From an uncultured Alphaproteobacteria bacterium (lineage in GTDB: Bacteria > Pseudomonadota > Alphaproteobacteria > RF32 > CAG-239): DNA of 64,000 bases. Made by a program: the position numbers and the translations under genes. The notes beneath the pieces were generated by a model, which saw only the letters and a list, made by a program, of their open reading frames with translations, was not told the DNA's origin and did not search any database. Positions 2 through 23,870 of the stretch are shown one piece after another (the first letter of the stretch is position 1; every line of letters starts with the position of its first letter). The stretch spans positions 46,766 through 110,765 of the forward strand of contig CASFQO010000008.1 in the NCBI GenBank assembly GCA_949297145.1, given 5' to 3'.

Positions 2-232
2 TTGCCAAATTCTGCAAAAGATAAAAACATAGTAAGCCTTCAAGATGGATTAAAAGAAAGCACAACAGCAAAAGACGATTACTCAATTGGAGCGCAAATT
101 AATTATTACACAACCCAGCAAATATTAAGTATTGTTGATGCGGATGCACAAAATCAACAAACAGAAATCTTAAAAGATCTTGAAACTTTTAACTACAACT
201 ATTTTGGAAAGCAGGCTGAAGGAGAAAGCTAA
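2..232 (+). CDS. C-terminal fragment of a hypothetical protein; no recognizable motif; translationally coupled (TAATG) to the next gene
   Basis: Open frame runs off the window start; stop overlaps the next start codon. Confidence 0.3.
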   Translation: MPNSAKDKNIVSLQDGLKESTTAKDDYSIGAQINYYTTQQILSIVDADAQNQQTEILKDLETFNYNYFGKQAEGES

Positions 233-930
233 TGAAAAAGAAACTATGTATCCTCCTCTTTGTCTCATTAATATCATATACGCGTGAAGCATATGCGATA
301 TTTGATATTATGGCAAAAGTAGAATCAGCCATGGAATTGTACAAAGATGTAGAGAATAAAGTACAGGAAGTTCAGAAAAAAATAAGAGATATAGAAAAAA
401 GAGCAAGACAAGGTTTTGAAATGGCAAGCAACTGCTATAAAAATCCAACGAAATGTGATCCCAAAGCCTTAAAATCATTTGCAGAAGATTCTGAAAGTTA
501 TGTAACCAGTCTGACAGAAATTAAAGTTATGCCGGGAGCAGAAGAATTAAAAGAAGGCGATTTAAAGAAGAAAAGCGATAACAGTTTGGCTCAAACAGTA
601 GAAAATACCTATATTTATCAAAGGGGACAAGGAGAAGATATTGATAAAACAGAAGAAAATCGTCGCTACATAAATGCCATTGTAGCAGACGATACAGCGT
701 TACTATTTGCCAAAGGCGTTTCCGCACGTCAAAGCATATTGGTGGAAGATGGTTCGTTATATCAGGCAGAATTCAAAAATGAAAATATGGATGAAATCCT
801 AAATGCACAAAATGTAGTGGCCATTGCAACAGAGCAAAGATTGAATAGGGTATTGGAAATGAGAGCGTATATGACAAGTGCCGGAGCAACGGCTGAGCTA
901 ACTCAACAAACAAGAGAAGCAGATGAATAG
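232..930 (+). CDS. Secreted hypothetical protein with Sec signal peptide (MKKKLCILLFVSLISYTREAYA) and a mostly helical, charged body; possible VirB5/TrbJ-like T4SS periplasmic component
   Basis: Signal peptide with AYA cleavage motif; coiled-coil-like K/E-rich composition; first complete gene of the T4SS operon. Confidence 0.5.
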   Translation: MKKKLCILLFVSLISYTREAYAIFDIMAKVESAMELYKDVENKVQEVQKKIRDIEKRARQGFEMASNCYKNPTKCDPKALKSFAEDSESYVTSLTEIKVMPGAEELKEGDLKKKSDNSLAQTVENTYIYQRGQGEDIDKTEENRRYINAIVADDTALLFAKGVSARQSILVEDGSLYQAEFKNENMDEILNAQNVVAIATEQRLNRVLEMRAYMTSAGATAELTQQTREADE

Positions 931-939
931 GAGGAAATT

Positions 940-2298
940 ATGAAGAAAAAAACAGCAATCATCTGCCTAATAATAGGACTAGCAACAGGAAATGCAAATC
1001 CTGCCAATGCCTTAATTTTGGATGCTCCGACATTAGCTGCCAAAATCAGTGAGTGGGTAGGAAAAATAACCGATGCCACAACAAAAGTGACCCAGCAAGT
1101 ATCACAAGTAAAACAAATGACATCACAGGGCTTTAACAAAGAAGAACTCTTCAGCATAGCAGAAGAATACGCCTCAAGTTATGGAAAAGATTTACTCAAA
1201 ACCAAAATGAAAAAAATAGTGGATGGCACAAAAAAGAAAAACCGAGACAAGATGGAAACAGAAAAAGAAGCCTATGTAGAAGCTCAGAATGCTTACTATG
1301 AAGAAAAAATTGGGATAATGGATGATAGTATAAAAGAAACCGAGAATGCACGCAATGAAGCGCAAACCGCTCGTACACAAAAGCAAGCAGAGGTTGATCA
1401 AAAAAAAAGCTACTATGAAAGCGTCAAAGGAAATCTGTCGAAAGAACCAAAAGCATATGATGAGTATATGAAGGCACAGATGGAATATGACGAATTAGAT
1501 AAGACTTGCCAAGAATTTGATGTTCTGCTGGAAAATTTAGAAATGCAGAGAAGCGTATTGCAAGAAGAAAAAGCCAAAGTAGGGACTTCTGATGATCCTC
1601 AGTATGCATTATATGAAAAACGTCTGGAAGAAATGGATAAAGAAATAGAAGAGGCCGATGGAGAAGGAGGAAAAGAAGAAATTGTTAATAAATCAAGTGG
1701 TAATGAGGCTGAATGGGACGATGAAAACGTTGTGAAAGATTTCTCACCTACCGAGAAAGATTACACAGATTTTCTTGAGAGATATTTCTACAATCCAGAG
1801 GATTTGTCTGCAGCTGGAGGAGATGCGCGAATTGAACACCAAACAAAAATAGATGCTGTCACCAGAGAAAGAAGATTTTTGCTTGTAAACAGTGCGGCAC
1901 ACTTACTACAGGTATCAGCAACATTAAGAAGGGAGATTCCAGTACGTAGTGAAATTATAGATGAGATGTTTCAAAATACTCCTAAATCGACAGGAGAATT
2001 AGAGGCAATATCATCATATTCAGCCACAAGAATAGAAAATATGAAAGCATTGCTTATGTATGCGAAACTTCAAAGTGCAAGATTACAGTATATGTCTGCT
2101 AAACAATTGCTTAGCATAGACGCCATAAAAGTACCAAATGGAAATTATTCTGATTTTAATTTAGAAAAATACATCTTGACCAAAGAAGATGTGGATAAGG
2201 CAATAGAAGAAGCCAACACAGCAAACAGCGGTGTAACTTCTGTTGAAGATAATTATGAAGTAAATGCGGGAGACTACCAATGGTTAACAAACAACTAA
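940..2298 (+). CDS. Secreted coiled-coil protein (signal peptide MKKKTAIICLIIGLATGNANPANA), 452 aa; candidate VirB5/TrbJ-like component; contains an A9 homopolymer at 1400-1408
   Basis: Signal peptide; long E/K-rich heptad-like segments; 9-nt gap from previous gene; 19-nt overlap with next gene. Confidence 0.5.
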   Translation: MKKKTAIICLIIGLATGNANPANALILDAPTLAAKISEWVGKITDATTKVTQQVSQVKQMTSQGFNKEELFSIAEEYASSYGKDLLKTKMKKIVDGTKKKNRDKMETEKEAYVEAQNAYYEEKIGIMDDSIKETENARNEAQTARTQKQAEVDQKKSYYESVKGNLSKEPKAYDEYMKAQMEYDELDKTCQEFDVLLENLEMQRSVLQEEKAKVGTSDDPQYALYEKRLEEMDKEIEEADGEGGKEEIVNKSSGNEAEWDDENVVKDFSPTEKDYTDFLERYFYNPEDLSAAGGDARIEHQTKIDAVTRERRFLLVNSAAHLLQVSATLRREIPVRSEIIDEMFQNTPKSTGELEAISSYSATRIENMKALLMYAKLQSARLQYMSAKQLLSIDAIKVPNGNYSDFNLEKYILTKEDVDKAIEEANTANSGVTSVEDNYEVNAGDYQWLTNN

Positions 2299-5200
2299 GA
2301 GTGCTACAAAGCCTAATCCTAAGTGTATTAATCTTAGGTGCAGGAATACAAGAGGCCAAAGCGTTTTTGTTTTTGCCACCGATGCCATGGGATATTGAAG
2401 TAGATATTCCGGGCAATGCTAATAAAATTGTATCAAACATAAAAGCAGCATATCGTCAGGCACAAACCATAAAGTCTGAGCTCAACAGCCAAAAATTGGA
2501 GATTTTAAAGAAAGGACAAGCTTTCTTAAAAACGAAGTTCAATAAATATTCAGAAAAGGGCAAGAGCAAAGTTCCCGGAAAAGGGGCACTTCGCAACAGT
2601 GAGCTGTTAAATATCACCAAAGGTGGATTGGATGAAGAAGAGAACTTTAACGCATTTCATACTCTATTTTTCGTATATCCGGCTAAGAGTGAATATCCGG
2701 ATAACTATCCTGCAGTAAAACAAGCTTATAAAAGAAAGGCCAATGAGTATAAGCAAGATGTAATTATGGAAACATACTTAACAGGACGTGTTACAGAAAA
2801 TTATTTGGCGTTAGTTGAAAAGACCATTGAACGTTTGGATAATTGCCAAAAGGGAATGTATACAGAAGCTGAAATGGCCGAACATTGCGTGTTCTTTGGA
2901 TTACAAATGGCTTATGTAGAACCGGAAAAAGAAAATTTGGACAATGAAGGCAGTCCGGAAGATAGTACAAATCCAGGACAATATGGCGAAGTTATGAATG
3001 CCTATATTGTGACGACCGTATACGATAGATTAATGCGCATTGTAGAAGACCTGACAGGAACAGAAGCGCAATTTATATCAGCTATGCAAATTGATAGTGT
3101 AGACCCGATAGAACCCGAAGAGCAGAGTTCCGCAGAAGAGTATTTAGATAAAGGATATCGTTTTGTATATAATGACAATAAAGATTATGCTTTAGCAACA
3201 GGGACAATGCTCGGGGGAAATTATATCCGCAGCCAAGAATGTAAAAATGGTGGTAAAAATTGCCCAGATCAAAACGAAGATAGAACAACAATTAAGAACA
3301 CAGATGATACAGCAATTTTAGGAAAGCTCCAGCCGATTGAAGAACAGTTAAATCGTGCAATGGATTTACATAATCTGAAATCTCAATTAGCCGAATATAA
3401 AACTCAGTACAGAAAATACCTAAAATCAAAAGAAATACACGATAGAATGATGAAGGTGCTGGAAAAGAGTGACAGCAGCGTTGTCGACTTTTTAAATAGA
3501 TATAGCGATGGCAAAGGCTCAGAAATTTGGTATGGCGAGAGTAAACCGACCAAAGTTAACGATCACAGTAGCCGTGGAGGTTTATCAAAAGATGTCATTA
3601 TGGAATATCAGGAAGATACAACAGATAAACTGATAGGTACGTCTACAGGGGAGTGCGATGGATTCTATGAAAGCTGCCCAGACGGATATACACCAGGAGA
3701 ACCTTGCACATATACGGACAGTACAGGTAAAACTGTAACAAGCACAACAATGTTTGCATGCGTACTTGATACAGTAACATCAGATACAGAACCGGTAGAT
3801 AGTCCAAAAGTTTCCTATGAGCCAAAATTAGAAGAAGATTATAGTATTGCCGGTAGTAATAATACCAGAGAATACAATGAGACAGATTATCTTAAAAACG
3901 GCAATCAAGCCGATGAAATAGAAACAGATAATAGGATCAAAGCTGAAAAGAACTGGCGCATCGGTTATGACAAAATTATGAAATTAACCGAAGACGGTAC
4001 ATTAAAATTTAAACCATGGAACGATCAAAAGAATTTGCAATCAGAATACTTGCGCAACAAATACCGTAATATTCGCATGATAATCAAAACAGCCGATCAG
4101 GGGATGTTATCACAACGTGTTGCAAAAGTTTTAGCAGACGGAAACAACAACATTGGTCCAATTGAAGAAGTTTTACCAGCAGTATCTGCTTGCCAATTAA
4201 CAACGGATGCTACAAAAGGCGATGCCTTTGATAAAGCTTGTGAGGGATACGATTTAAACAAATCTTGTACAGGGAGCGGAGATGAAGCATCTTGCCATGC
4301 AGAAAAGAAGATATTATGTACATGCTATGACTCTGATGGAGATCCATATTCTTGTAGTAAAAAATTAACATGTAACATTAGTGGCAGCAATGACACAGGC
4401 ATAATAACTGGTTCTAGAGAAGAAACTTGTGCTAAAGTATCTGTTCCGATTAGATATAGTCAAACGATTAAAAATTTAACTGGAGGCTGCGATTTCACCA
4501 AAGCCGGAAGTGACTATACCGCCGTTGAAGATAAAAGCGGAAAATGCCCGGGAGAATGGGATTTGACCACCAAATTCCTTGTCAAAAGGTATATTCCGGG
4601 TGTAACAGCAAGCTGGAAGCATGAGGGAGGTTATGAAGGTACTTGCCCAACATCATTAGATGCACAAAATACACATCTATATGAAAATACTCACGCAGCC
4701 GGAAGAGTTGTTGCATCAGATCATTTCCAAGAACTTTTGGATTTGCGTAAACAAGTAGAAGCGAAATTGAAAGCTTTTATACAACAGTATGAAAACGATA
4801 TTAGCGCCTTAAAATCCGAGCTCCGCACAACAATAGCTCAACGGAGCGAATATGGGCAAAAACTAAGTGATGCCACGGATATTAAAAATGAGGCGGTTCA
4901 ACAGCGTCAACGCTCATTAAAACGTGTAGATGCAATCATCTCACAAATAGCAGAGTTGGAAAATCGTGTTGTTGAACTAAAAGCACGCTTGAACGAAAGA
5001 ACGCCAAAGCCGAAGAGCCTACAAAAAGAAATAGAGTCTTTAGAAATTGGTGCTGGTGAAGACTTAAATAAATTTGAAAAGCCGACATTAGCTCAACGAA
5101 TTGGGCAGATTCCGGCACTTCGAGAAGAATTAGCGTACATCTGCTACAATTCGCCAACTGATGAAGCGTACAAAGTATGTGCCCCATATAGAGCAACGGA

Positions 5201-7685
5201 AAATAAAGAAAATCCTTATGATGAAAACACACGTGATGATGATAAGTTTGATAAGATAGCTGATTTACATAAAGTAATCACTGCTAAAAACACGGAAATT
5301 GACAGTGCACAGTCTATGATGAAAATTCTGCAAGATAAAATAGATTCGCTAAATGAACAGTTGGAGAACACTGCAACAAAATTTGCAGAAGACTATATTC
5401 AAAAATCAGAAGAAGGCCAAGCAGAAATAGAAACAGCCAATAAAGTATTTGAAGATAAGCTCGAAACCAAGGAGGATGGCACTGAGCCAGACAGAATGGT
5501 TAGTGAAAACAGGGAATGGTGCAAACGTTATGGTCCAATAGGCCTAATCTGCAGAGAACACAGCAGTGAATACAAATATGACAATTTAGGTTGGACGATG
5601 GCCCGCGTAATGTTTGGCACAGGAAGCTCAAACAACGAAGGCGATGTTAAAGGTGAATTGCCAAACATTGTAAAAGATACCATTAACCAGCGTTGGTTCT
5701 CTAACAGCAGTTGGATTAATAATGCTGCTTCCAAACTAACACAAAAAGGTGGTGTTGTTAGAAAATTTGTGGTTGAAGGGGGAGTTTTAGCGCCCTACGG
5801 CATTCCTGATGGTCTATATACGCCAAGTCTTTTAGCCCAAAAAATAAAAGAAAAATCTGTAGAAGAAGCCAAGACCGCTTTGGCAGAAGGTGACTATGCA
5901 TACATTAACAAAGCAGATAAACTCGTCAAAGACGAAATAGATGCAGCGGTTAATAAAGTCACAGAGGTTATGGAAGAATGGGGCGTAACCGGAGAAGAGG
6001 GTAAAGAAGCAAATCCTGCAATTTATGAGCATGATAACTATGCTGCAGACGGAGCCACAGAAGGTGAGCAAGTCGTAACAGCAAGGCACTATCAGTTACT
6101 GGAAGACTTAAAGAAAGCTGTACATCAAAGTACACTTGATGCAGCAGAGATTGATTTACAACAAGTCTTTGGTATTCCTAATAATATTGTAACTGATGAT
6201 GACTATTTTGCAGCTCTACCGGCAAGAGGAAACTACAAGGGAACAGATACCTTTGTTCAGTTCGGGCGTGAAAATGGAAAATTCATCTTTGATGAAAATG
6301 ACGGCCGCGATTACCAAGCTCCAAGAAAACCATTATTAAATTTAGCTCCAGTAAGAGAAGTATTTTACTTCAGTGCATTGGATTATGATGATGTTCCGCA
6401 AAAAGACGGAAAACCATCATTGTCAGCACTGGTAGATTTAAAATATAAAGGTACGGAAAACGCCGTAGAATATTTGCCTGAAACTTGGAGATATTTATTG
6501 GCAACTCCAAACTTAAGACCAGGCACGGAAAAATATCAGCACACCTTTGTAGAACGAGCATTTGGAGTGGATAAACTAAAGAAATACCTGAATAATGAGG
6601 GAATAATCGGTGCAGAAGAATGGCACTATAGAACCATCATTGATCGAGCAGGCGTATATCCATGCAAACTAGGTGGCACAATAATAGATATTGCCGGCGG
6701 CGATAATGTGGGCGATATACAATTTAAGCGCCGCAGTTCAATGCCCGCAGGTATAACCAAGATTGAAAATTGCCAAGAAGTACTTGCATATAAAAGCGGT
6801 GTACGACACTTATTGGCAGACCACGATTCGAAAGATGACAGCAAATCTAAAGCTTTACAAGGAAGTTTAGGAAATACATCCGAACCAATGTACTCAAAGT
6901 ATAGCGAATTAGGACAATTCCTAAATGGTAACTTGCAATATCGTCCGTTGCTAAAAAATATTTATGACTATTTACTTGATGAAAACAATCAAGAAAATAA
7001 CATAGAGCGTCAACGTGCAGATACGGCAATCTTTAAGCGCAATATCATAGGCTCCTTCCTTGAAGCTGTAAACGCAGAGCATACGGCAGAAAAGTCTTTG
7101 GAACAAAACAAAGAAGATGCTATGGATACACTGAAAAACTTATGTACACAACTTCACAATTTTGGCGAGAGCGTCAATGGAGAAAGCTGTGCAGATAGTG
7201 AAGACAGTGAATGCTCTGAAGATATTGCAACAAGTTGTGCTGAATACATCATGGCAAATGGCGGATTAGCTAAAAATTCGGCAGATGATGTATATGATGT
7301 TGATTGTGCAAAATCAAATACCGGTTCATATTATGAAACTATATTCTGCAAACTTAACGACTTAAAAGATGAGGCTATTAAGAATGCAGAGAATGGTTAT
7401 AGCGATGAAAATGGTGAATACGAAGGATATAATGAAGTGAAAGGAATGACTGGAAACGAAAAGGTAGAAGAACGCAAACAGCAAATTGAAAACTACATAA
7501 CCGTTTTCACAGAAACAGATCCTGATGAAATATCTTACGTACAACCAAATGCAACACCGGAAGCAGTAGCCGAAGATGTGAAAGAAGCTCAAGCTAACCG
7601 CGAGGCATCATTAGATGCAACTGAAGAAGGTCTGGCATCTATGGATAATCAAAGTCAAGCGGTACCTTACGCACCGATATATTAA
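2280..7685 (+). CDS. Giant (1801 aa) secreted Cys-rich, coiled-coil, acidic protein of unknown function, at the position occupied by rvhB9-1 in Rickettsia T4SS loci
   Basis: Signal peptide MVNKQLRVLQSLILSVLILGAGIQEAKA; GGGAGA RBS 8 nt upstream; no TM segments; Cys-dense block approx aa 450-800; long coiled coils (e.g. QELLDLRKQVEAKLKAF...); acidic C-terminus. Confidence 0.55.
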   Translation: MVNKQLRVLQSLILSVLILGAGIQEAKAFLFLPPMPWDIEVDIPGNANKIVSNIKAAYRQAQTIKSELNSQKLEILKKGQAFLKTKFNKYSEKGKSKVPGKGALRNSELLNITKGGLDEEENFNAFHTLFFVYPAKSEYPDNYPAVKQAYKRKANEYKQDVIMETYLTGRVTENYLALVEKTIERLDNCQKGMYTEAEMAEHCVFFGLQMAYVEPEKENLDNEGSPEDSTNPGQYGEVMNAYIVTTVYDRLMRIVEDLTGTEAQFISAMQIDSVDPIEPEEQSSAEEYLDKGYRFVYNDNKDYALATGTMLGGNYIRSQECKNGGKNCPDQNEDRTTIKNTDDTAILGKLQPIEEQLNRAMDLHNLKSQLAEYKTQYRKYLKSKEIHDRMMKVLEKSDSSVVDFLNRYSDGKGSEIWYGESKPTKVNDHSSRGGLSKDVIMEYQEDTTDKLIGTSTGECDGFYESCPDGYTPGEPCTYTDSTGKTVTSTTMFACVLDTVTSDTEPVDSPKVSYEPKLEEDYSIAGSNNTREYNETDYLKNGNQADEIETDNRIKAEKNWRIGYDKIMKLTEDGTLKFKPWNDQKNLQSEYLRNKYRNIRMIIKTADQGMLSQRVAKVLADGNNNIGPIEEVLPAVSACQLTTDATKGDAFDKACEGYDLNKSCTGSGDEASCHAEKKILCTCYDSDGDPYSCSKKLTCNISGSNDTGIITGSREETCAKVSVPIRYSQTIKNLTGGCDFTKAGSDYTAVEDKSGKCPGEWDLTTKFLVKRYIPGVTASWKHEGGYEGTCPTSLDAQNTHLYENTHAAGRVVASDHFQELLDLRKQVEAKLKAFIQQYENDISALKSELRTTIAQRSEYGQKLSDATDIKNEAVQQRQRSLKRVDAIISQIAELENRVVELKARLNERTPKPKSLQKEIESLEIGAGEDLNKFEKPTLAQRIGQIPALREELAYICYNSPTDEAYKVCAPYRATENKENPYDENTRDDDKFDKIADLHKVITAKNTEIDSAQSMMKILQDKIDSLNEQLENTATKFAEDYIQKSEEGQAEIETANKVFEDKLETKEDGTEPDRMVSENREWCKRYGPIGLICREHSSEYKYDNLGWTMARVMFGTGSSNNEGDVKGELPNIVKDTINQRWFSNSSWINNAASKLTQKGGVVRKFVVEGGVLAPYGIPDGLYTPSLLAQKIKEKSVEEAKTALAEGDYAYINKADKLVKDEIDAAVNKVTEVMEEWGVTGEEGKEANPAIYEHDNYAADGATEGEQVVTARHYQLLEDLKKAVHQSTLDAAEIDLQQVFGIPNNIVTDDDYFAALPARGNYKGTDTFVQFGRENGKFIFDENDGRDYQAPRKPLLNLAPVREVFYFSALDYDDVPQKDGKPSLSALVDLKYKGTENAVEYLPETWRYLLATPNLRPGTEKYQHTFVERAFGVDKLKKYLNNEGIIGAEEWHYRTIIDRAGVYPCKLGGTIIDIAGGDNVGDIQFKRRSSMPAGITKIENCQEVLAYKSGVRHLLADHDSKDDSKSKALQGSLGNTSEPMYSKYSELGQFLNGNLQYRPLLKNIYDYLLDENNQENNIERQRADTAIFKRNIIGSFLEAVNAEHTAEKSLEQNKEDAMDTLKNLCTQLHNFGESVNGESCADSEDSECSEDIATSCAEYIMANGGLAKNSADDVYDVDCAKSNTGSYYETIFCKLNDLKDEAIKNAENGYSDENGEYEGYNEVKGMTGNEKVEERKQQIENYITVFTETDPDEISYVQPNATPEAVAEDVKEAQANREASLDATEEGLASMDNQSQAVPYAPIY

Positions 7686-7704: not shown

Positions 7705-8463
7705 ATGGTTAATTTAATAAATCAAAAAATACTTCGGATAACAGATAAAGGAAAACCCAAAGAAGCTCCGGCATTTATTACGGAAGATGTCATAGAAGTA
7801 AAACGTGCAAAATTGATTTATTACAAATGGATAAGTAGATTAATGGCGCTACTTGCAACCATCTCTTTGCTATATGGTGTTTGTGCAACATTATCAATAT
7901 TAAAGTTAGCGCCGGAAATAGTAATAGATCCGCAATTATTTGTACGCCTATCCGATTCTGAGTCTTTAGTCAAAAGGGAGAGAGTTGACCGTTGGATGGA
8001 GTCTCGTGAAAAGATGATGGTGAATTTCATGAAACAATATGTAGAGCTCCGAAACACCTACATCAAAGATGAAAAAGAAATGAATAACCGCTGGTTATGG
8101 GGAGGTCTTGTGTCATACCTATCAACCTATCCGGTATATAAAGAATTTGAAAAGGTCTTTCCTAAATTAAAAGAAGAAATGCAAGAAAAGGAAGCAAGTC
8201 GTTCTGTAGAAATTCTCTCAGTTGAGCGAACGGGCGGTGAAAACAGTAATACATGGAAAATAGAGTTTAAGACGTATGATTTTACTTTTAAGCAAAATAG
8301 ATTAAGCCGACGAGCAAGCGTGAAGCCGATTATAGAAGAGAGATTCTGGACTGCGAACATTCGTGGATATGTCGATCCAAACAGAAGAACGGCCTACAGA
8401 CGCCTTTTAAATCCATTAGGATTTGTCGTATACAGTTATTTTCAAAGTGAAATTGAGACTTAA
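7705..8463 (+). CDS. virB8: VirB8-like T4SS inner-membrane protein, paralog 1 (bitopic: N-terminal cytoplasmic tail, one TM, periplasmic NTF2-like domain)
   Basis: Single TM WISRLMALLATISLLYGVCATLSIL; size 252 aa; conserved C-terminal NPLGF-V-Y motif shared with the second copy. Confidence 0.7.
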   Translation: MVNLINQKILRITDKGKPKEAPAFITEDVIEVKRAKLIYYKWISRLMALLATISLLYGVCATLSILKLAPEIVIDPQLFVRLSDSESLVKRERVDRWMESREKMMVNFMKQYVELRNTYIKDEKEMNNRWLWGGLVSYLSTYPVYKEFEKVFPKLKEEMQEKEASRSVEILSVERTGGENSNTWKIEFKTYDFTFKQNRLSRRASVKPIIEERFWTANIRGYVDPNRRTAYRRLLNPLGFVVYSYFQSEIET

Positions 8464-8798: not shown

Positions 8799-8809
8799 GG
8801 TAAAAATCT

Positions 8810-18464: not shown

Positions 18465-21400
18465 TTGCGAAAAAAAATATTAAATTTTATCCATATTCTT
18501 GAACTGGTGGTAGTCTGTATTGCCTTCAGTGTGAAGGCTATGGCTGCAGATATTAGTGCACTCAATTTTAATGGAGATTTAATAGGAAAAGTAATTCCTG
18601 ACGGTTCCGTAATAAATAGTGATAATGAGCTTATTGGGTATATGACTGCAGATGGGTTTATTTTTGATAATGATAATAATTTAATTGGAGGCATTGTACC
18701 GCAGGGTATAGCTATTTCATACAACAATAATATTTTAGGAAAAATCAACAATGATGGATCAGTTACGTCGCTAAACGATAGTCTAATTGGAAAGGTCTTA
18801 CCAAATGGCTTAGTCGTTAATGATAATTATGATATTTTAGGAGCCGCCGTTTCACCAAATTTAGTGTATAATGATGGTGGACAAGTTGTTGGACGAGTAT
18901 CAGGCGATGGTAAGTTTTATAATTTATCTGGAGAAAATACCGGATTTGTAACTGCAACAGGATTCGTCTATTCATCTAATGATAACGGAACAGAAAAAAA
19001 AATTAGCCTTATAGGAAAATTAATTACATCAAAGATGGTAATATCGTCAGGTGGAAAATATTTAGGCAGCATAGCTCCGGATGGAAAAGTACTAGATTTA
19101 AGGAAAAATATCATAGGGAATATTCATGCCAATGGTTTTGTATATAACAAAGAAGGGCAGGCAATAGGTCATGTTGTTGATAACGGGTATGCGTTTAATA
19201 ACAACGGACAATACATAGGGGTCGTAAGCTATAACGGTGAGGTTATAAATAAAGGAACAGTAGTTGCCCATGCCATAAATGGTAACAGAGTCATAAATAA
19301 AGAAGGAAATACAATTGGCTTTACAGTCAATATGGCTGCTACAGCAAATACATTAGATGGCAAGTATCTGGGGCGTATTACGGCAGAAGGAAAAATACTT
19401 GATAAAAGAAATATTATAGGAAGCATAGGTGCCTCTGGAAAAGTAGTTAATGAACAAGGTGCTGTTATCGGTATGGTCAATCCGGTAGGTCCTGTATTTG
19501 ATTATTTAGGAAATTTACGAGCAAATGCCGCCATAGGAGGTAAAATTGTTTCATTAGAAGGAATAGAACAGGGAACAGTTCGTCAAAATGAAGCAATAGA
19601 TAATAATGGAAACATTATTGGTAAAACGATAGATAATAATTTATGCTTTAACAGTAATAATGAATTTTTAGGAATAAGCGGTATAGGAACGTATCTAAAG
19701 GCAAATGGGCAGACATATAAAATCTCGCCTTACGGGTATGTCTTTAATGAAAATGGAGAATTAAGCGGTATCAATATTAAGCAAGGTGGTGTATACACAG
19801 AAGATGGAGCAACACTATCATATACATCAAATGAAGGAAAAACCGAAAATACTTCATTAAATGAAATAGCTAAATTTACAGGAGCCGGAATTTTTCTTGA
19901 TAAAAATAATAAGCTATTAGGAAAGATGATAGAAAACAAGTATATCACGAATTTTGAAGGCGAAATGCAAGGTGTCATCAATGCAGGCAATTTGGTTGTA
20001 AATAATAAAAATAAGATTTTTGCAAAAATATTACCAAATAATAATGTTGTTGGCATATCAGAGCGTATTGCCCAAAATTATGGAAGAGCCGGAACTGCAC
20101 CGATTAGCATAAGTATAAATGGGGATTACCTTGGTGCAAACAGTGTGACAGGGCAAATAACAAAAGGCTCCGAAATTGTAGGGAAAATAAGCTCAGATGG
20201 TTACGCTATAGATAATATGGGGGCATTATACGGAAAAACATTAAATATGGGAGCCGTAATCTCGCCAGAATGTAAAGTACTAGGAGTAGTCTCAGATAAG
20301 GGCGAAGCAAGAACATCTAAAGGAGCATATCTGGGGATGATACTAGCCAATAGGCAAGTTGTAGATGAGACAGAAAATGTGATAGGCTATGTTGTTGAAT
20401 CCCAACCGATAAACGGTAAAAATGGAGAAAGTATCGGTGTGGCTAATACATCTGGTAATGTTCTCAATTATAATAATCAAAATTTGGGATGTTTAGACAA
20501 TACCGGTAAAGTAAAAAATTCTCAGCAAGAAATAATTGGACAGGTGATTCCGTATATGTCTATTATGGGATATGACAATAAAATTATCGGATATACGAAT
20601 TTTTATGGAAATGTCATAGATAATTCGGGAATACAAATAGCAACTATAGATTTAGATGAAAGCGTATTATCTAAAACAGGAGAAAATATTGGTGTTCCGT
20701 TTCAATATACAGTAGCTTTTGATGCAAATAACATTTATTTAGGGCGAGTTAAGCCTGATGGAAATGTTGTGTCAGATGGTGGAGAAATTTTAGGTACAGT
20801 CTTATACACAGGAGAAGTAAAAACAACAAAAGGCGAAAATGGTTATGCCCTATATGATTTATATGTTTATGATAATGATGGAAAGACAATAGGCTATATA
20901 GCCAAGAATGGCCGCGTTTACAGTATTATGGGTGAATTAAAAGGTGCTATCTCCCAAGGATTTGTCTTAGATAAAAAACAAAATTTAATAGGTAGAGGAT
21001 TGAGAGATTATAATATAAGAAACAAAGATAATCAAATTATTGGATATTTGAAATTAGATGGAAGCGTTGTTGATATTAAGAATATTGAGATCGGAAAAAT
21101 TGATGAAAAAGGAAATGTCATAACCCTCTCGGGTCAAAACATTGCACAGGCTGGAAAGTTGCAATATTATCACCGTCCAGCTGAACCAATGACAGAAGAA
21201 AAGGTTTCGCAACAAGATACAAAAGAAACTAAACAGAATGAAAATATCGATACAATAAGAGATACAAAAAATACAGAAGAAGCAGAAGAAACAGAAGAAA
21301 TAGAAGAAGCAGAAAATCTAGAGGGTACAAAACGAGAACCCCAGGAAGATGTTGAAGCTTTATCTCCGGAGGAAGCCGCAGCAGCGGAAGTCAAAGACAA

Positions 21401-22820
21401 ATATCGAGTTATAGGCATTGCTGTAACACCAGGTGGACGCTATATTGGAGATGTATACAGCAATAATCAAGTAATAGATGAATCAGGAACTGTTATAGGT
21501 AGCACAAATGCTAATGGTGAGATTTTAGATAAGGAAGGTAACAAAGTAGGGACTTTTGAAAAAAACAAAGAAACCTCCAATCAAGGAATAAAAACAAAAT
21601 GGTGGGAACAAGTCGCGACCGGAGAAACAATTAGCCCCTACAGTAGCGGCAATGAAATAACTAATGTTGGCCCTGGAGGCGGTATTGGCCCTGGAGGAAG
21701 ATATAATCCAAGGCGTGCAGCAATATTATCCCAATTGCAAGATGAAAGACGGAGAACCATGGTCGCCGCGAAAATTGAGCCGGGATACGATGCTGCATCC
21801 TATACAGGTTGGCAAGATGACTGGGGAATTAATCGTTCCGTATCGACATTAAGGGTTAATATGGATAATATGATTACGGGAGATAAACCAATTCCGGCTG
21901 TTTTAGCAAGGTCCTTAATATCTCTTGGTTCTGCTCCGGTAACAGCAATTGTTGAAAGAAATATATATGGTGATTCAGGGCGTAACGTTATTATTCCTGC
22001 CGGTAGCAGAATTATAGGAGGTTTACAAACAACAGACGCAGAATCAAGATTTGACAGTACGAGTGGCGGTGTCAAATTAGAAATATCATGGGAAAGAATT
22101 ATACGTCCGGATGGAATAGCATTCTTGCTATCGGCTGGGAGGACACAAACAGGTGATGCACAAGGTCGCGGTGGTGGTGCGTTAGGTTATGTGGATGAGC
22201 AATTAGTAAAAAAATACACATTGCCGATTGTTGGTACAATGGTAACATCAGCCATAACATACATGATGGCAGTGGATGAAGAAAGCACGGGAGAAGTAGA
22301 AACCTCTAAACAGCAAGCTGCATCAGATGCACGTCAACAATTTATGGAAAAGATGGATGAAATTTTGCAAGAAATTATAGATAGTAAATCACAGATAGAG
22401 CCTGTTACCTATGTTCCGGCTGGCACAAGGGTTATCATTTATCCAATGCAAGATTTGTGGCTAAGAAGTACAAAAGATATTCAAAAAGGAATAATAACGA
22501 ATGTTCCAGGTGGCGGAGAAGGCGGACTTGTAAATGAAACGTTCTACGATGGAGGTGGAACAACCAGCACATCAACAGTTCAGAGTAACAACTCAAAGAA
22601 TAGCCAAAAGGTGATTTTGGGCAATCAGGCACAAACAAATAACACCAATAATAATGGTGGTGGCGGTACACCTCTTATGGAAGATACTTCTCAAAACAAC
22701 ACGCAGCAGCAACCTCATAGAAACATAGGAGCAATACCACCTCCAGCAGCTGATGGAACCATAACAGAAGCTCCAGAAAGCGAAGAGGATTTATCTGGAG
22801 AGGTGGAATTAATATACTAA
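18465..22820 (+). CDS. virB10: Giant (1451 aa) VirB10/TrbI-family protein: Sec signal peptide, ~870 aa of the same D-x-D/N-G hairpin repeats, an acidic E-rich linker, a VirB10 C-terminal beta-barrel domain (approx nt 21735-22575), and a G/N/T/Q-rich tail
   Basis: TTG start 6 nt after a GGAGGA RBS; h-region ILNFIHILELVVVCIAFSV with VKA-MAA cleavage motif; C-terminal …IPAGSRIIGGLQ…ISWERIIRPDGIAF…ALGYVDEQL…VPAGTRVIIYP… matches VirB10/TrbI CTD. Confidence 0.8.
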   Translation: MRKKILNFIHILELVVVCIAFSVKAMAADISALNFNGDLIGKVIPDGSVINSDNELIGYMTADGFIFDNDNNLIGGIVPQGIAISYNNNILGKINNDGSVTSLNDSLIGKVLPNGLVVNDNYDILGAAVSPNLVYNDGGQVVGRVSGDGKFYNLSGENTGFVTATGFVYSSNDNGTEKKISLIGKLITSKMVISSGGKYLGSIAPDGKVLDLRKNIIGNIHANGFVYNKEGQAIGHVVDNGYAFNNNGQYIGVVSYNGEVINKGTVVAHAINGNRVINKEGNTIGFTVNMAATANTLDGKYLGRITAEGKILDKRNIIGSIGASGKVVNEQGAVIGMVNPVGPVFDYLGNLRANAAIGGKIVSLEGIEQGTVRQNEAIDNNGNIIGKTIDNNLCFNSNNEFLGISGIGTYLKANGQTYKISPYGYVFNENGELSGINIKQGGVYTEDGATLSYTSNEGKTENTSLNEIAKFTGAGIFLDKNNKLLGKMIENKYITNFEGEMQGVINAGNLVVNNKNKIFAKILPNNNVVGISERIAQNYGRAGTAPISISINGDYLGANSVTGQITKGSEIVGKISSDGYAIDNMGALYGKTLNMGAVISPECKVLGVVSDKGEARTSKGAYLGMILANRQVVDETENVIGYVVESQPINGKNGESIGVANTSGNVLNYNNQNLGCLDNTGKVKNSQQEIIGQVIPYMSIMGYDNKIIGYTNFYGNVIDNSGIQIATIDLDESVLSKTGENIGVPFQYTVAFDANNIYLGRVKPDGNVVSDGGEILGTVLYTGEVKTTKGENGYALYDLYVYDNDGKTIGYIAKNGRVYSIMGELKGAISQGFVLDKKQNLIGRGLRDYNIRNKDNQIIGYLKLDGSVVDIKNIEIGKIDEKGNVITLSGQNIAQAGKLQYYHRPAEPMTEEKVSQQDTKETKQNENIDTIRDTKNTEEAEETEEIEEAENLEGTKREPQEDVEALSPEEAAAAEVKDKYRVIGIAVTPGGRYIGDVYSNNQVIDESGTVIGSTNANGEILDKEGNKVGTFEKNKETSNQGIKTKWWEQVATGETISPYSSGNEITNVGPGGGIGPGGRYNPRRAAILSQLQDERRRTMVAAKIEPGYDAASYTGWQDDWGINRSVSTLRVNMDNMITGDKPIPAVLARSLISLGSAPVTAIVERNIYGDSGRNVIIPAGSRIIGGLQTTDAESRFDSTSGGVKLEISWERIIRPDGIAFLLSAGRTQTGDAQGRGGGALGYVDEQLVKKYTLPIVGTMVTSAITYMMAVDEESTGEVETSKQQAASDARQQFMEKMDEILQEIIDSKSQIEPVTYVPAGTRVIIYPMQDLWLRSTKDIQKGIITNVPGGGEGGLVNETFYDGGGTTSTSTVQSNNSKNSQKVILGNQAQTNNTNNNGGGGTPLMEDTSQNNTQQQPHRNIGAIPPPAADGTITEAPESEEDLSGEVELIY

Positions 22821-22889
22821 AAAAGAACAGATTGACGAAGGTTAAGATGTTTGCTAAGATAAGACATAAGGAAATTTGGGAGTGTATAA

Positions 22890-23870
22890 ATGGGAAAGCT
22901 TGAGGATGAAGTTCTTTGCTCTGTATTAAGACCATTATCATATTGGTATGATCAGGAGAATATAGAAGAAGTCGCTATAAATCATCCTGGCGATATATGG
23001 CTGCGCTTGCGCGGCAAAAGAGCCTTTCCATGGGTGAACTATAAGGATCCTAAATTAACCAGAGAATATTTGACAAATTTACTGCATATAATAGCAAATT
23101 TAAATGATCAAGAGTTTGATCCGATAAATGGTTCACCGGTTGTTTACGCCAGAATTCCTGGAGGACATCGTTTTACAGGTATCGCCGGAAAAAATATTGA
23201 GTATGATTTAGATGATGCCGCGACTGGAGGAATAGCGATAGCGATACGTTTGCATTCGGATGATGTAGCATTTGGCTTTGGAGATTATGGCTTGGAGCAG
23301 GGGAAAAAATTAAAAGAGATTAATCCCTTAAAGCATATCAAAGATCCTGATGATGCGTATGAAAGGTTGCTGCTGGCATTACGCCGTGGAGACCATATCC
23401 TAGTGAGTGGTGGTACAGGAACTGGTAAAACGACATTATTAAACAACTTGCTAAAACTTCTGGATATACATAAAAGAGTAATAACGGTGGAGGATACGCG
23501 AGAACTTAATGTGCCGCAACCAAATCATGTACATATTGTTTTATCGCGTACAGAGCAGACGAATACGATGGATTATTCCAAAGTAATTGACTTGATTGTA
23601 CGTTTTACTCCAGATGCAATCATCGGCGGAGAAATTTCTACAAGTAATGCGGGAGCAATTTGGGAATTGATGGGATCAGGACACGATAACTGCCTAGCCA
23701 CAATACACGCAGAGAGCTCGACCGCCGCCTATGAAGCATTTGTAAAACGTATTATGAGAACACAGCCGAACATAGATGTTGAAAAAACGATAGAAGAGAT
23801 GCGTCGCAAACTTCACGTTGTGCAAATCGTAAGAGACGGCAATATTCGTGGAATTACAGAAATAACTTAA
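22890..23870 (+). CDS. virB11: VirB11 T4SS traffic ATPase
   Basis: Walker A VSGGTGTGKTT; 326 aa; VirB11/CpaF-like N- and C-terminal domains. Confidence 0.88.
   Translation: MGKLEDEVLCSVLRPLSYWYDQENIEEVAINHPGDIWLRLRGKRAFPWVNYKDPKLTREYLTNLLHIIANLNDQEFDPINGSPVVYARIPGGHRFTGIAGKNIEYDLDDAATGGIAIAIRLHSDDVAFGFGDYGLEQGKKLKEINPLKHIKDPDDAYERLLLALRRGDHILVSGGTGTGKTTLLNNLLKLLDIHKRVITVEDTRELNVPQPNHVHIVLSRTEQTNTMDYSKVIDLIVRFTPDAIIGGEISTSNAGAIWELMGSGHDNCLATIHAESSTAAYEAFVKRIMRTQPNIDVEKTIEEMRRKLHVVQIVRDGNIRGITEIT

What the first reader, a model, noticed from the sequence alone, without database searches (positions are those of the whole stretch)
232..23870. A ~23.6-kb single operon encoding an rvh-type (Rickettsiales-like) T4SS core with massively enlarged components
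Ten genes on one strand are joined by overlaps or gaps of 20 nt or less; the one exception is a 143-nt gap before the VirB7-like gene. The order virB8 - VirB7-like lipoprotein - virB8 - virB9 - virB10 - virB11 is the signature arrangement of Rickettsiales rvh systems, which have duplicated virB8/virB9 and rvhB7 between the virB8 copies. Here the scaffold components are enormous (proteins of 1801, 652, 2306 and 1451 aa), and three extra secreted proteins sit upstream. Gigantism of T4SS core subunits is otherwise best known from the H. pylori Cag system (CagY, CagX, CagT, Cag3, CagM). Composition matches the flanking chromosome, so this is probably not a recent acquisition.
Basis: partly seen in the sequence, partly recalled or inferred. 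Interest (0 to 1): 0.85.

Follow-up and report, generated by a model that had tools for sequence, protein, structure and literature searches.

The report
Oversized type IV secretion gene cluster
This is most of a roughly 31-kb type IV secretion system locus that is conserved in at least 39 species of uncultured gut alphaproteobacteria; its channel protein VirB10 has grown to about 3,750 residues of beta-flower repeats and is split into two genes, which makes it an unusual variant of a well-known machine, not a Rickettsia-type system.

Summary
The ten ORFs exist as described. Profile searches confirm VirB8 twice, a lipoprotein between the two copies, VirB9 (with a C-terminal SPOR domain), VirB10 (TrbI domain) and VirB11.

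- **Operon boundary.** The window cuts the locus. Upstream lie three virB2 genes, virB3, virB4 and two more secreted proteins, giving 17 genes over about 31.3 kb.
- **The 2306-aa gene.** It has no T4SS domain. It is the membrane-anchored N-terminal half of a split VirB10. Relatives encode one fused 2179-2683-aa VirB10, and the split junction is conserved in 22 of 22 species.
- **The organism.** It is an uncultured gut or rumen alphaproteobacterium, and at least 39 species carry the locus.
- **The rvh label.** Only the virB8-virB7-virB8 arrangement matches rvh. VirB9 is single, no VirB6 array follows virB4, no virD4 follows virB11, and the genes are contiguous.
- **The secreted proteins.** The 232-, 452- and 1801-aa proteins match no known family or fold.

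I found no VirB6, VirD4, VirB1 or relaxase in about 74 kb of this genome. The substrate and function are therefore inferred, not shown.

Verdict: a real, conserved, expanded T4SS, and a new variant of a known kind.

The parts
1..232 (+). 3' end of a 727-aa signal-peptide protein gene (p727); it starts upstream of the window and overlaps the next start codon by 1 nt
   Evidence: L046 7818-10001 maps to the window through position 232. p727 is a paralogue of the 386-aa protein before it (hhalign probability 98.8%).
232..930 (+). g1: 232-aa secreted all-alpha protein of unknown family, with two invariant Cys
   Evidence: Signal peptide ending AYA. No Pfam, NCBIfam or PDB hit. AF2 pLDDT 56 with three long helices. 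The family has 71 cluster representatives in 1.84 billion proteins, none with a VirB5/TrbJ domain.
940..2298 (+). g2: 452-aa secreted coiled-coil protein of unknown family
   Evidence: Signal peptide. Its N-terminal about 65 residues resemble g1 (hhalign probability 95%, an alignment that includes the signal peptide). Only coiled-coil noise against PDB.
2280..7685 (+). g3: 1801-aa secreted, Cys-rich protein with a central coiled coil and no known domain or fold
7705..8463 (+). virB8a: the divergent VirB8 copy, bitopic
   Evidence: PF04335 7.5e-13. TM at 43-61. Weak PDB match only (TrwG, 0.056). 30% identical to virB8b.
8464..8606 (.). Conserved 143-nt intergenic region: invariant CCTGTTGATAAGT and the palindrome TTAGACTTTTAAAA(A/T)TAAAAGT(T/C)TAA at 8544-8569; candidate internal promoter or operator
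   Evidence: Alignment of 14 species. The palindrome is unique in the window and in L046, with 0 matches expected by chance. No covariation. No Rfam family.
8607..8798 (+). virB7-like 63-aa lipoprotein
   Evidence: Lipobox LILAAC. Lies between the two virB8 genes in all 39 loci. 76-100% identical in clade A and about 47-58% in clade B.
8810..9568 (+). virB8b: the canonical VirB8 copy
   Evidence: PF04335 3.1e-17. PDB matches to Bartonella and Brucella VirB8 at 7e-6 to 7e-5.
9588..11546 (+). virB9 with a disordered linker and a C-terminal SPOR (peptidoglycan-binding) domain
   Evidence: CagX 4.2e-14 at residues 80-327 and SPOR 3.6e-4 at residues 578-650. SPOR is also found in clade B VirB9 (4.2e-5) and is precomputed for several homologues.
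11543..18463 (+). virB10 N-terminal half: short cytoplasmic tail, one TM helix (17-35), a domain of about 200 aa, then about 2,050 aa of beta-flower repeats
   Evidence: Bflower_2 2.8e-163 in 24 stretches. TM score 3.18. Collinear with the N-terminal part of the fused clade-B VirB10.
12870..13851 (+). Near-identical tandem DNA repeats (327-nt period, 3 copies; 156-nt sub-period) inside virB10N; a site of copy-number difference and contig breaks
   Evidence: TRF. Contigs of the same species start at 13193 or at 13733-13765, and one contig is 156 nt shorter.
18465..22820 (+). virB10 C-terminal half: cleavable signal peptide, about 1,000 aa of beta-flower repeats, an acidic linker, then the TrbI/VirB10 barrel domain (residues 1137-1333)
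   Evidence: TrbI 1.9e-27 and Bflower_2 5.5e-52. ComB10 3.4e-32. PDB 2BHV ComB10 9e-17. The start TTG lies 1 nt after the upstream stop, behind a conserved CGGAGGAA, in 22 of 22 species.
22890..23870 (+). virB11 ATPase; last gene of the locus
   Evidence: TIGR02788 6.3e-47 and T2SSE 1.8e-26. Followed by yihA, yidC, yidD, rnpA and rpmH on the other strand.

Best explanation
Window 1-23870 is the distal two thirds of a chromosomal VirB-type (type IVA) secretion system locus of about 31.3 kb and 17 genes. The order is virB2 x3, virB3, virB4, five Sec-exported proteins (386, 727, 232, 452 and 1801 aa), virB8a, virB7, virB8b, virB9, virB10N, virB10C, virB11. The locus is a core feature of a clade of uncultured gut and rumen Alphaproteobacteria.

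**Shown here.**
- The identity of the core genes.
- VirB9 carries a C-terminal SPOR domain.
- VirB10's usually short periplasmic linker is replaced by about 3,000 residues of beta-flower repeats.
- In this clade the giant VirB10 has been split. One half is an inner-membrane-anchored 2306-aa protein. The other is a Sec-exported 1451-aa protein that carries the outer-membrane TrbI barrel.
- The two halves have a junction arranged for translational coupling.

**Inferred.**
- VirB7, VirB9 and VirB10C form an enlarged outer-membrane core complex that is pinned to peptidoglycan by SPOR.
- The two VirB10 halves meet through their beta-flower arrays. They rebuild the inner-to-outer-membrane bridge as a massive periplasmic cage or ring. 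This is analogous to the CagY and DotG expansions.
- VirB4 and VirB11 power the machine.
- The three VirB2 paralogues and the five secreted proteins occupy the operon position of VirB5 and VirB6. I infer that they form or decorate an extracellular pilus or adhesin, as in Bartonella Trw.
- No coupling protein or relaxase is in the locus, so the machine most likely mediates contact-dependent attachment and/or protein delivery to another cell, not conjugation.

**Confidence by step.** About 0.9 for 'VirB-type T4SS with a giant, split, beta-flower VirB10 and SPOR-VirB9'. About 0.35 for the adhesion or effector-delivery function.
For: **Core domains.**
- VirB8 twice, VirB9, VirB10 and VirB11 are confirmed by profile hits.
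- Upstream lie three TrbC/VirB2 genes, a 96-aa protein in the VirB3 position (no profile hit) and VirB4.

**Conservation.**
- The gene order is the same in 32 species of clade A. A reduced B8-B7-B8-B9-B10-B11 block is present in 7 species of clade B.
- VirB4 is 84-98% identical across human-gut and rumen metagenomes.
- The locus lies next to the yidC-rnpA-rpmH and dnaA-dnaN-recF region, with flank-like GC content.

**VirB10 fission.**
- Clade B encodes single ORFs of 2179-2683 aa. The two scanned (2445 and 2179 aa) have beta-flower repeats and a C-terminal TrbI domain, and four of them start with a hydrophobic TM-like segment.
- These ORFs are collinear with the 2306-aa protein and then the 1451-aa protein.
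- The N-half has one strong TM helix. The C-half has a signal peptide.
- The junction CGGAGGAAy-stop-N-TTG is conserved in 22 of 22 species while the stop codon varies among TGA, TAA and TAG.

**Other points.**
- SPOR is present on VirB9 in both clades.
- The five secreted proteins each have a signal peptide and no internal TM helix.
- Sizes of about 2,090-2,100 aa for virB10N recur in many independent assemblies, so the gigantism is not a misassembly.
Against: - No VirB6, VirD4, VirB1 or relaxase was found in about 74 kb of this genome (window plus 10 kb upstream). All characterised T4ASSs need VirB6. It must be elsewhere or replaced, and I could not test either possibility.
- Nothing shows where the beta-flower arrays sit (periplasm or surface) or that the two VirB10 halves interact.
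- The pilus or adhesin role of the five secreted proteins rests on gene position, signal peptides and helical content only. Every test for VirB5 or TrbJ homology was negative or inconclusive.
- Beta-flower is a predicted fold with no known function (PMC10584680).
- All sequences are metagenome assemblies, and expression is untested.
Confidence: 0.7

Rival explanations
1. An rvh-type T4SS: the locus is a member or direct sister of the Rickettsiales vir homologue system, and its virB8-virB7-virB8 arrangement is inherited from the same ancestor.
For: - The virB8-virB7-virB8-virB9-virB10-virB11 order matches the core of rvh islet C (PMC2653234).
- One VirB8 copy is canonical and the other divergent, as described for rvh.
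- Clade B carries this block as a stand-alone islet.
- The VirB10 domain is closest to ComB10. Gillespie et al. noted ComB affinities for rvh VirB7 and VirB9.
- The host is an alphaproteobacterium.
Against: - There is no second VirB9.
- No VirB6 array follows virB4.
- No virD4 follows virB11.
- virB2, virB3 and virB4 are contiguous with the rest in clade A.
- Several secreted proteins sit where VirB5 would be.
- Neither VirB8 copy hit any Rickettsia VirB8 chain in the PDB sequence search at E <= 1.
- The two VirB8 copies are 30% identical, so an independent old duplication is equally possible.
- The nearest plasmid relatives are ordinary alphaproteobacterial conjugative VirB systems.
Confidence: 0.15
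2. A ComB-like DNA-uptake (competence) system: a T4SS without a coupling protein that imports DNA.
For: - The VirB10 domain scores best against ComB10 (NCBIfam 3.4e-32 against 6.4e-24 for VirB10; PDB 2BHV 9e-17 against TrwE 6e-5).
- There is no VirD4 or relaxase in the locus.
Against: - From my own knowledge, ComB lacks VirB11. Here VirB11 is present, three VirB2 pilins are amplified, and 3,600 aa of secreted proteins are added.
- Nothing here resembles ComEC or other DNA-handling genes.
- The score difference may reflect phylogeny only.
Confidence: 0.12
3. The conjugative transfer apparatus of an integrated element (ICE or plasmid remnant).
For: The nearest VirB11 in plasmids (41% identity) belongs to a conjugative-type VirB locus with MobA and VirD4.
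Against: - No relaxase, VirD4, integrase or flanking tRNA is present.
- The locus and its internal gene order are the same in 32 species; the origin-proximal position was checked in this species only.
- GC content equals that of the flanks.
- VirB4 is 84-98% identical across species, which fits vertical inheritance under strong selection.
Confidence: 0.03
4. The giant ORFs are assembly artefacts (repeat collapse or expansion), or the 2306-aa gene is an unrelated repeat adhesin inserted into the operon.
For: - Contigs of the same species break inside the 12870-13851 array.
- One contig differs by one 156-nt unit.
- The 2306-aa product has no T4SS domain.
Against: - Intact ORFs of 1990-3151 aa occur in more than 30 independently assembled species, with recurring lengths of about 2,090-2,100 aa.
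- The fused clade-B VirB10 shows that the repeats belong to VirB10.
- The coupling junction is conserved.
Confidence: 0.03

Closest known systems
Rickettsiales rvh T4SS (islet C: rvhB9a-B8a-B7-B8b-B9b-B10-B11-D4)
   Same: - Two divergent virB8 genes flank a small virB7 lipoprotein gene, followed by virB9, virB10 and virB11.
- One VirB8 is canonical and one divergent.
- The host is an alphaproteobacterium.
- Clade B carries the block as a separate islet.
   Different: - VirB9 is single.
- No VirB6 paralogue array is present, and no virD4 follows virB11.
- virB2, virB3 and virB4 are contiguous in clade A.
- Extra secreted proteins sit in the VirB5/B6 position.
- VirB10 is seven- to ten-fold larger and is split.
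- VirB9 has SPOR.
- The hosts are gut and rumen MAGs not titled Rickettsiales (with one exception).
Helicobacter pylori Cag T4SS (CagY, a VirB10 homologue of about 1,900 aa with repeat regions; size from my own knowledge)
   Same: - A VirB10 homologue is hugely enlarged by internal repeats.
- The repeats include near-identical DNA copies that could recombine in frame.
- The core complex is expected to be expanded.
   Different: - The repeats here are beta-flower hairpins, not CagY-type repeats.
- The combined VirB10 of 3,757 aa is about twice the size of CagY and is split into two polypeptides.
- No Cag3, CagM or CagT homologues were detected.
- The PDB match to CagY is weak (3.2e-4).
Legionella Dot/Icm DotG (a VirB10 homologue with a long repeat region) and DotK (a peptidoglycan-binding OMCC subunit)
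   Same: The idea is the same: an elongated VirB10 and a peptidoglycan-binding module within the outer-membrane core complex (PMC12857230 for OMCC composition).
   Different: - This is a type IVA gene set, not type IVB.
- Peptidoglycan binding is by a SPOR domain fused to VirB9, not by a separate OmpA-like subunit.
- The repeat type is different.
Bartonella Trw T4SS (own knowledge: amplified trwL/virB2 and trwJ/virB5, no VirD4, erythrocyte adhesion)
   Same: - Pilin genes are multiplied (three virB2).
- Several secreted proteins lie between virB4 and virB8.
- There is no coupling protein in the locus.
   Different: - Trw keeps VirB6 (TrwI) and has normal-sized core subunits.
- Homology of the secreted proteins here to VirB5 is not demonstrated.
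Ordinary alphaproteobacterial conjugative VirB loci (for example Sphingosinicella sp. BN140058 plasmid p1)
   Same: This is the best plasmid match of VirB11 (41% identity). The order is the same: virB2-B3-B4-(two unknowns)-B8-B9-B10-B11.
   Different: The plasmid locus has one VirB8, a VirB9 of 430 aa, a VirB10 of 548 aa, VirD4 and a MobA relaxase. It has no beta-flower repeats, no SPOR and no giant secreted proteins.
H. pylori ComB competence T4SS
   Same: ComB10 is the best-scoring relative of the VirB10 barrel domain. There is no VirD4.
   Different: VirB11 is present here. The accessory content and subunit sizes are very different.

Membership tests
VirB-type type IVA secretion system | VirB4 ATPase | tested here: met
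   An 806-aa CagE_TrbE_VirB protein lies 3.5 kb upstream of the window start on the same contig (L046 4104-6524).
VirB-type type IVA secretion system | Core complex genes virB7, virB9 and virB10 | tested here: met
   Lipoprotein with a lipobox, CagX 4.2e-14 and TrbI 1.9e-27.
VirB-type type IVA secretion system | VirB8 and VirB11 | tested here: met
   PF04335 twice and TIGR02788 6.3e-47.
VirB-type type IVA secretion system | VirB2 pilin and VirB3 | tested here: met
   Three TrbC/VirB2 ORFs (2.1e-9, 3.2e-7 and 1.1e-3). A 96-aa membrane protein sits in the VirB3 position; it has no profile hit and is assigned by position and sequence features only.
VirB-type type IVA secretion system | Polytopic VirB6 | tested here: inconclusive
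   No ORF with more than one TM-like segment, other than the pilins, lies between virB2 and virB11. None was recognised in the 10 kb upstream or the 40 kb downstream. The rest of the genome was not available.
VirB-type type IVA secretion system | VirD4 coupling protein | tested here: inconclusive
   Not in the locus or in about 74 kb around it. The rest of the genome was not searched. Several known T4ASSs lack VirD4.
Rickettsiales rvh T4SS | Duplicated VirB8 flanking VirB7 | tested here: met
   virB8a at 7705-8463, virB7-like at 8607-8798 and virB8b at 8810-9568. The arrangement is conserved in all 39 loci.
Rickettsiales rvh T4SS | Duplicated VirB9 (a B9a copy upstream of B8a) | tested here: not met
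   Only one CagX-domain ORF is present. The gene upstream of virB8a is the 1801-aa protein, which has no VirB9 signal in Pfam, NCBIfam or the PDB profile search.
Rickettsiales rvh T4SS | Multicopy VirB6 downstream of virB3-virB4 | tested here: not met
   virB4 is followed by five signal-peptide proteins without internal TM helices.
Rickettsiales rvh T4SS | Duplicated VirB4 | not testable with these tools
   There is one VirB4 in the locus.
Rickettsiales rvh T4SS | No VirB5 analogue | tested here: inconclusive
   Secreted helical proteins occupy the VirB5 position, but they show no detectable homology to VirB5 or TrbJ.
Rickettsiales rvh T4SS | virD4 immediately after virB11 | tested here: not met
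   virB11 is followed by yihA on the opposite strand. Clade B also has no VirD4 after virB11.
Rickettsiales rvh T4SS | Orthology of the two VirB8 copies to RvhB8-I and RvhB8-II | not tested
   No Rickettsia sequences were available. Neither copy hit any Rickettsia VirB8 chain in the PDB sequence search at E <= 1, which is only a weak negative.
Cag-type expanded T4SS | Cag-specific core subunits (Cag3, CagM, CagT) | tested here: not met
   No Pfam, NCBIfam or PDB hit of any operon product to these proteins.
Cag-type expanded T4SS | VirB10 homologue enlarged by internal repeats | tested here: met
   The repeat type is different. 24 plus 7 Bflower_2 stretches. 2306 + 1451 aa in the window, and 2179-2683 aa when fused in clade B.
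Conjugative element (ICE or plasmid) | Relaxase, coupling protein, integrase or variable location | tested here: not met
   None in the 74 kb examined. The locus lies beside the origin-region genes in this species and has the same internal gene order in 32 species.

The most novel reading that the evidence does not exclude
An order-level lineage of uncultured human and ruminant gut Alphaproteobacteria depends on a previously undescribed architectural class of T4SS.
- Its VirB10 has been turned into a two-piece scaffold of more than 3,700 aa. The scaffold consists of tandem beta-flower domains, a predicted fold with no known function.
- VirB9 anchors the machine to peptidoglycan through SPOR.
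- VirB5 and VirB6 are replaced by five lineage-specific secreted proteins, one of 1,800 aa with a new fold.
- The machine serves an epibiotic or host-contact lifestyle.
- It shares the virB8-virB7-virB8 ancestry with Rickettsiales rvh. That would make it the first rvh sister system outside Rickettsiales.
Probability: 0.2. Interest if true: 0.8.

Novelty: new variant of a known kind. Interest (0 to 1): 0.6.

Why it matters
T4SS structural biology has three reference architectures: the minimised VirB/R388 type, Cag and Dot/Icm. This locus would add a fourth way of enlarging the machine.
- A VirB10 has been split into an inner-membrane part and an outer-membrane part. This is a natural experiment on VirB10, which is thought to couple energy at the inner membrane to gating of the outer-membrane channel as one continuous chain.
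- It gives the predicted beta-flower fold its first clear functional context.
- It shows a SPOR domain recruited into a secretion-system core.
- The carriers are widespread but uncultured alphaproteobacteria of human and ruminant guts, whose biology is essentially unknown. A strictly conserved, origin-proximal 31-kb secretion locus is the strongest available clue to how they interact with hosts or neighbours.
- It also shows that the virB8-virB7-virB8 arrangement is not diagnostic of Rickettsiales rvh.

Tried and rejected
**VirB5/TrbJ identity of the upstream secreted proteins.** All of these tests were negative or inconclusive:
- Pfam at E <= 10.
- Single-sequence and profile searches of PDB.
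- An AF2 model of g1 (pLDDT 56) with a Foldseek search (no hit).
- A profile search of 1.84 billion representatives followed by a Pfam scan of the distant hits.
- hhalign against the VirB5-position protein of the nearest plasmid locus.

The idea remains a positional guess. The only internal relationships found are p386 with p727 (98.8%), and g1 with g2 at the N-terminus (95%, an alignment that includes the signal peptide).

**Fold of the 1801-aa protein.**
- A profile against PDB gave only coiled-coil noise.
- The afdb50 library was unavailable.

**RNA element in the 143-nt gap.** There is no Rfam hit and no covariation, so I rejected this in favour of a DNA operator or promoter.

**Programmed +1 frameshift or readthrough joining the VirB10 halves.** I rejected this. 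The stop codon varies among TGA, TAA and TAG. In several species the +1 frame has stops just upstream. The downstream product starts with a typical signal-peptide n-region right at a conserved TTG behind a conserved Shine-Dalgarno sequence.

**Mobile-element origin.** I rejected this (see the rival explanations).

**Other points.**
- Literature searches for RF32, gut Alphaproteobacteria T4SS, SPOR with VirB9 and beta-flower with T4SS found no prior description.
- My assignment of these MAGs to the GTDB order RF32 is from memory and was not tested.

Full report
**1. Observation.** The gaps and overlaps in nt are +9, -19, +19, +143, +11, +19, -4, +1 and +69. There are therefore two gaps above 20 nt, not one: 143 nt before the virB7-like gene and 69 nt before virB11.

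- VirB8, 7.5e-13 (7705-8463) and 3.1e-17 (8810-9568).
- CagX/VirB9, 4.2e-14, plus a C-terminal SPOR domain at 3.6e-4 (9588-11546).
- TrbI/VirB10, 1.9e-27, at residues 1137-1333 of the 1451-aa product.
- VirB11, TIGR02788 6.3e-47.

The 63-aa ORF at 8607-8798 has a lipobox (LILAAC). The 232-, 452- and 1801-aa products have N-terminal signal peptides and no other hydrophobic segment. They hit no Pfam or NCBIfam family. The 2306-aa product matches only beta-flower repeat families (Bflower_2, 2.8e-163, 24 stretches; also Bflower and DUF3659). GC content is 0.34-0.40 against 0.32-0.40 in the flank. The very high GC skew at 12-18 kb coincides with the Gly/Asp/Lys/Asn-rich repeat gene.

**2. The window cuts the locus.** The 232-aa protein was found on 24 metagenome contigs. 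On ENA ERZ16268242 scaffold_425, which is 100% identical to window 1-10930, the same strand carries seven further genes upstream:
- Three TrbC/VirB2 pilin paralogues.
- A 96-aa membrane protein in the VirB3 position. It has no profile hit; the assignment rests on position and sequence features.
- An 806-aa VirB4.
- Two more signal-peptide proteins of 386 and 727 aa. They are paralogues of each other (hhalign 98.8%).

The last of these ends at window position 232. The locus is therefore 17 genes and about 31.3 kb.

Further upstream, on the opposite strand, lies a type IVb-pilus-like cluster (TcpQ, secretin, PilO-like). Downstream of virB11 come yihA, yidC, yidD, rnpA and rpmH, then gpsA, and then recF, dnaN, dnaA and rpsT. 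The locus therefore sits beside the chromosomal origin region. The rest of the window is housekeeping: mfd, recG, ptsP, a peptide chain release factor (PCRF/RF-1 domains), dnaX, hsp33 and fpg. I found no VirB6, VirD4, VirB1 or relaxase anywhere in about 74 kb.

**3. Who carries it.**
- A search with VirB9 returned more than 120 proteins at 60% identity or above and 578-697 aa. The few that carry names are called 'TrbG/VirB9 ... [Alphaproteobacteria bacterium]' or '[Acetobacter sp.]' MAG.
- A scan of one genome per species found 39 loci. All are from uncultured gut or rumen MAGs of human, mouse, buffalo, deer and sheep. Their titles include Alphaproteobacteria bacterium, 'Acetobacter sp. CAG:977', 'Rhodospirillales RUG10829' and one 'Rickettsiales bacterium UMGS1453'.
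- From memory, GTDB places these in the order RF32. I did not test that.
- VirB4 is 84-98% identical across human-gut and rumen metagenomes.

**4. Comparative anatomy.**
- *Clade A* (32 species; VirB9 58-88% identical to the window) always has g1 (224-247 aa), g2 (432-472 aa), g3 (1683-1989 aa), virB8a, virB7, virB8b, virB9 (599-761 aa), the beta-flower gene (1990-3151 aa) and virB10.
- *Clade B* (7 species, including CAG:977; VirB9 about 50% identical) has virB8a, virB7, virB8b, virB9 (495-525 aa, also with SPOR, 4.2e-5), one ORF of 2179-2683 aa (complete in five of the seven loci) and virB11. Unrelated genes lie upstream.

The clade-B giant ORF starts with a TM-like hydrophobic segment, continues with beta-flower repeats and ends with a TrbI domain (1.7e-31 and 8.7e-30). 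Its residues 17-1972 align with residues 8-2094 of the window's 2306-aa protein. Its residues 1042-2330 align with residues 36-1367 of the 1451-aa protein.

The 2306-aa gene is therefore not an extra subunit. It is the N-terminal half of a VirB10 that was already gigantic and was then split in clade A.
- The N-half keeps VirB10's short cytoplasmic tail and one strong TM helix (residues 17-35).
- The C-half has acquired a cleavable signal peptide (MRKK...VKAMA|AD).
- The junction is ...CAAAAyCGGAGGAAy-stop-N-TTG in 22 of 22 species. The stop varies among TGA, TAA and TAG, and a Shine-Dalgarno sequence is embedded in the last codons.

This is the pattern of translational coupling of two separate products. 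It does not fit recoding. Together the two halves total 3,757 aa, and they would exceed 4,500 aa in L034. From my own knowledge CagY is about 1,900 aa.

**5. Repeats and assembly.**
- The tandem array at 12870-13851 (327-nt period, 3 copies, 81% matches; 156-nt sub-period) encodes near-identical 52-aa and 109-aa modules.
- Several contigs of the same species begin at 13193 or at 13733-13765.
- Scaffold_425 is 100% identical on both sides but is 156 nt (one unit) shorter. Its product is called as 2254 aa instead of 2306 aa.
- The closest other species has 2093 aa. Its alignment with the window protein begins at residue 400 of the latter, and the rest of the window protein is not covered.

The exact copy number is thus uncertain or variable. 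The gene as a whole is well supported: lengths of about 2,090-2,100 aa recur in many independent assemblies.

**6. The rvh question.** The published rvh hallmarks are duplicated VirB8, VirB9 and VirB4, multicopy VirB6 and no VirB5 (PMC11077975). Rickettsia islet C reads B9a-B8a-B7-B8b-B9b-B10-B11-D4, and the genes are scattered in five islets (PMC2653234).

Only one hallmark is met here, virB8-virB7-virB8.
- The two copies are 30% identical.
- Copy b matches Bartonella and Brucella VirB8 at about 1e-5.
- Copy a matches nothing better than 0.056.
- Neither copy hit any Rickettsia VirB8 chain in the PDB sequence search at E <= 1.

These features are not met:
- A second VirB9.
- A VirB6 array after virB4.
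- virD4 after virB11.
- Scattering of the genes, in clade A.

The barrel domain of VirB10 is closest to H. pylori ComB10 (NCBIfam 3.4e-32 against 6.4e-24 for VirB10; PDB 2BHV 9e-17 against TrwE 6.2e-5 and CagY 3.2e-4). The best plasmid relative of VirB11 (41% identity) sits in an ordinary conjugative VirB locus. That locus has one VirB8, a 430-aa VirB9, a 548-aa VirB10, VirD4 and MobA.

I therefore do not file the locus as rvh. Shared ancestry of the VirB8 duplication remains possible but was not tested.

**7. The secreted proteins.**
- *g1.* It is all-alpha with two invariant Cys. AF2 gave three long helices at pLDDT 56 and no fold match. Its family has 71 cluster representatives in 1.84 billion proteins, and the distant ones carry no VirB5 or TrbJ domain.
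- *g2.* It shares about 65 N-terminal residues with g1 (95%). That alignment includes the signal peptide.

These proteins occupy the operon position of VirB5 and VirB6, but homology to either is not demonstrated. From memory, their mature N-termini (for example FIWPVIDLTEIV in p727) recall the IPxID start of TrbJ/VirB5. The nearest plasmid's VirB5-position protein starts QIPTIDPSLI. However, hhalign gives no support.

**8. How it most likely works.**

*Shown:* the gene content, the topology signals, the SPOR fusion, the fission and the coupling junction.

*Inferred:*
- VirB7, VirB9 and the TrbI barrel of VirB10C form the outer-membrane core.
- SPOR tethers the core to peptidoglycan. SPOR domains bind denuded glycan strands, which is established knowledge of the family.
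- The N-half, anchored in the inner membrane, and the C-half, anchored in the outer membrane, fill the periplasm with about 3,000 residues per protomer pair of tandem beta-flower domains.
- Beta-flower is a predicted shallow beta-barrel fold. It is related to the Tubby C-terminal domain, and its function is unknown (PMC10584680).
- The two halves probably associate through these arrays. This would restore the envelope-spanning bridge and build a Cag- or Dot-like periplasmic ring.
- VirB4 and VirB11 energise the machine.
- Three pilins and five secreted proteins suggest an elaborate surface filament or adhesin.
- Without a coupling protein or relaxase in the locus, adhesion and/or contact-dependent protein delivery is more likely than conjugation. 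A ComB-like DNA-uptake role cannot be excluded.

The missing VirB6 is the main unexplained gap.

**9. Regulation.** The 143-nt gap before virB7 is conserved in length and largely in sequence across 14 clade-A species whose flanking proteins are only 60-70% identical.
- It contains the invariant block CCTGTTGATAAGT.
- It contains a near-perfect 26-bp palindrome at 8544-8569. The palindrome is unique in the window, with 0 matches expected by chance.
- These are followed by TAATTATA and the virB7 ribosome-binding site.
- There is no covariation and no Rfam match.

A repressor or activator site at an internal promoter is the simplest reading. The 'single operon' claim is therefore unproven. In five of the seven clade-B loci the corresponding gap is under 15 nt.

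**10. Verdict.** The finding is real and largely correct as an observation. The 'T4SS with gigantic parts' reading holds, and the 'rvh-type' label does not. I found no prior description in the searchable literature. I rate it a new variant of a known kind, with interest 0.6.

Noticed in passing
window 8464-8606 (palindrome at 8544-8569; block CCTGTTGATAAGT at about 8511-8523): The intergenic region before virB7 is almost invariant across 14 species. It contains a unique 26-bp palindrome, TTAGACTTTTAAAA(A/T)TAAAAGT(T/C)TAA. A TTAA-N7-TTAA (CtrA-box-like) motif spans the virB8a stop codon. This is probably an operator or internal promoter. The regulator is unknown.
   Followed up: partly
L053 810-7860 (- strand); also L046 1-2076: A type IVb-pilus-like cluster (466-aa membrane protein, TcpQ-domain protein, secretin, PilO-like protein, 526-aa unknown) is transcribed divergently from the virB2 end of the T4SS locus.
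   Followed up: partly
window 12870-13851: An array of near-identical 156- and 327-nt repeats lies inside virB10N. An otherwise 100%-identical contig has exactly one unit fewer, and many assemblies break here. This may be CagY-like in-frame copy-number variation, or only an assembly ambiguity.
   Followed up: partly
window 43742-44575 (- strand): A 277-aa protein carries glycoside hydrolase 108 (3.6e-19) and PG_binding_3 domains behind a 120-aa N-terminal extension. It is a peptidoglycan hydrolase and could stand in for the missing VirB1. No link to the T4SS is shown.
   Followed up: no
window 41492-42274 and 42348-43130 (+ strand); also 43204-43701: Two tandem, nearly identical 260-aa lipoprotein genes are each internally duplicated and Cys-rich, with no Pfam family. 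A 165-aa secreted protein of unknown family follows them.
   Followed up: no
window 23878-34400: The T4SS locus abuts the replication-origin gene neighbourhood: yihA-yidC-yidD-rnpA-rpmH, gpsA, recF-dnaN-dnaA and rpsT. This is an unusual, highly expressed chromosomal position for a 31-kb secretion locus.
   Followed up: partly
window 11780-12140 (VirB10N residues about 80-200): A conserved domain of about 120-200 aa lies between the TM helix and the first beta-flower repeat. It is also present in the fused clade-B VirB10 and includes the motif TCNV(L/V)(I/V)xW. I did not identify it.
   Followed up: no
window 12000-18000: GC skew reaches 0.36-0.43, against about 0.1-0.2 in neighbouring genes on the same strand. 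This is explained by the G-rich codon usage of the Gly/Asp/Lys/Asn repeat protein, not by replication.
   Followed up: yes
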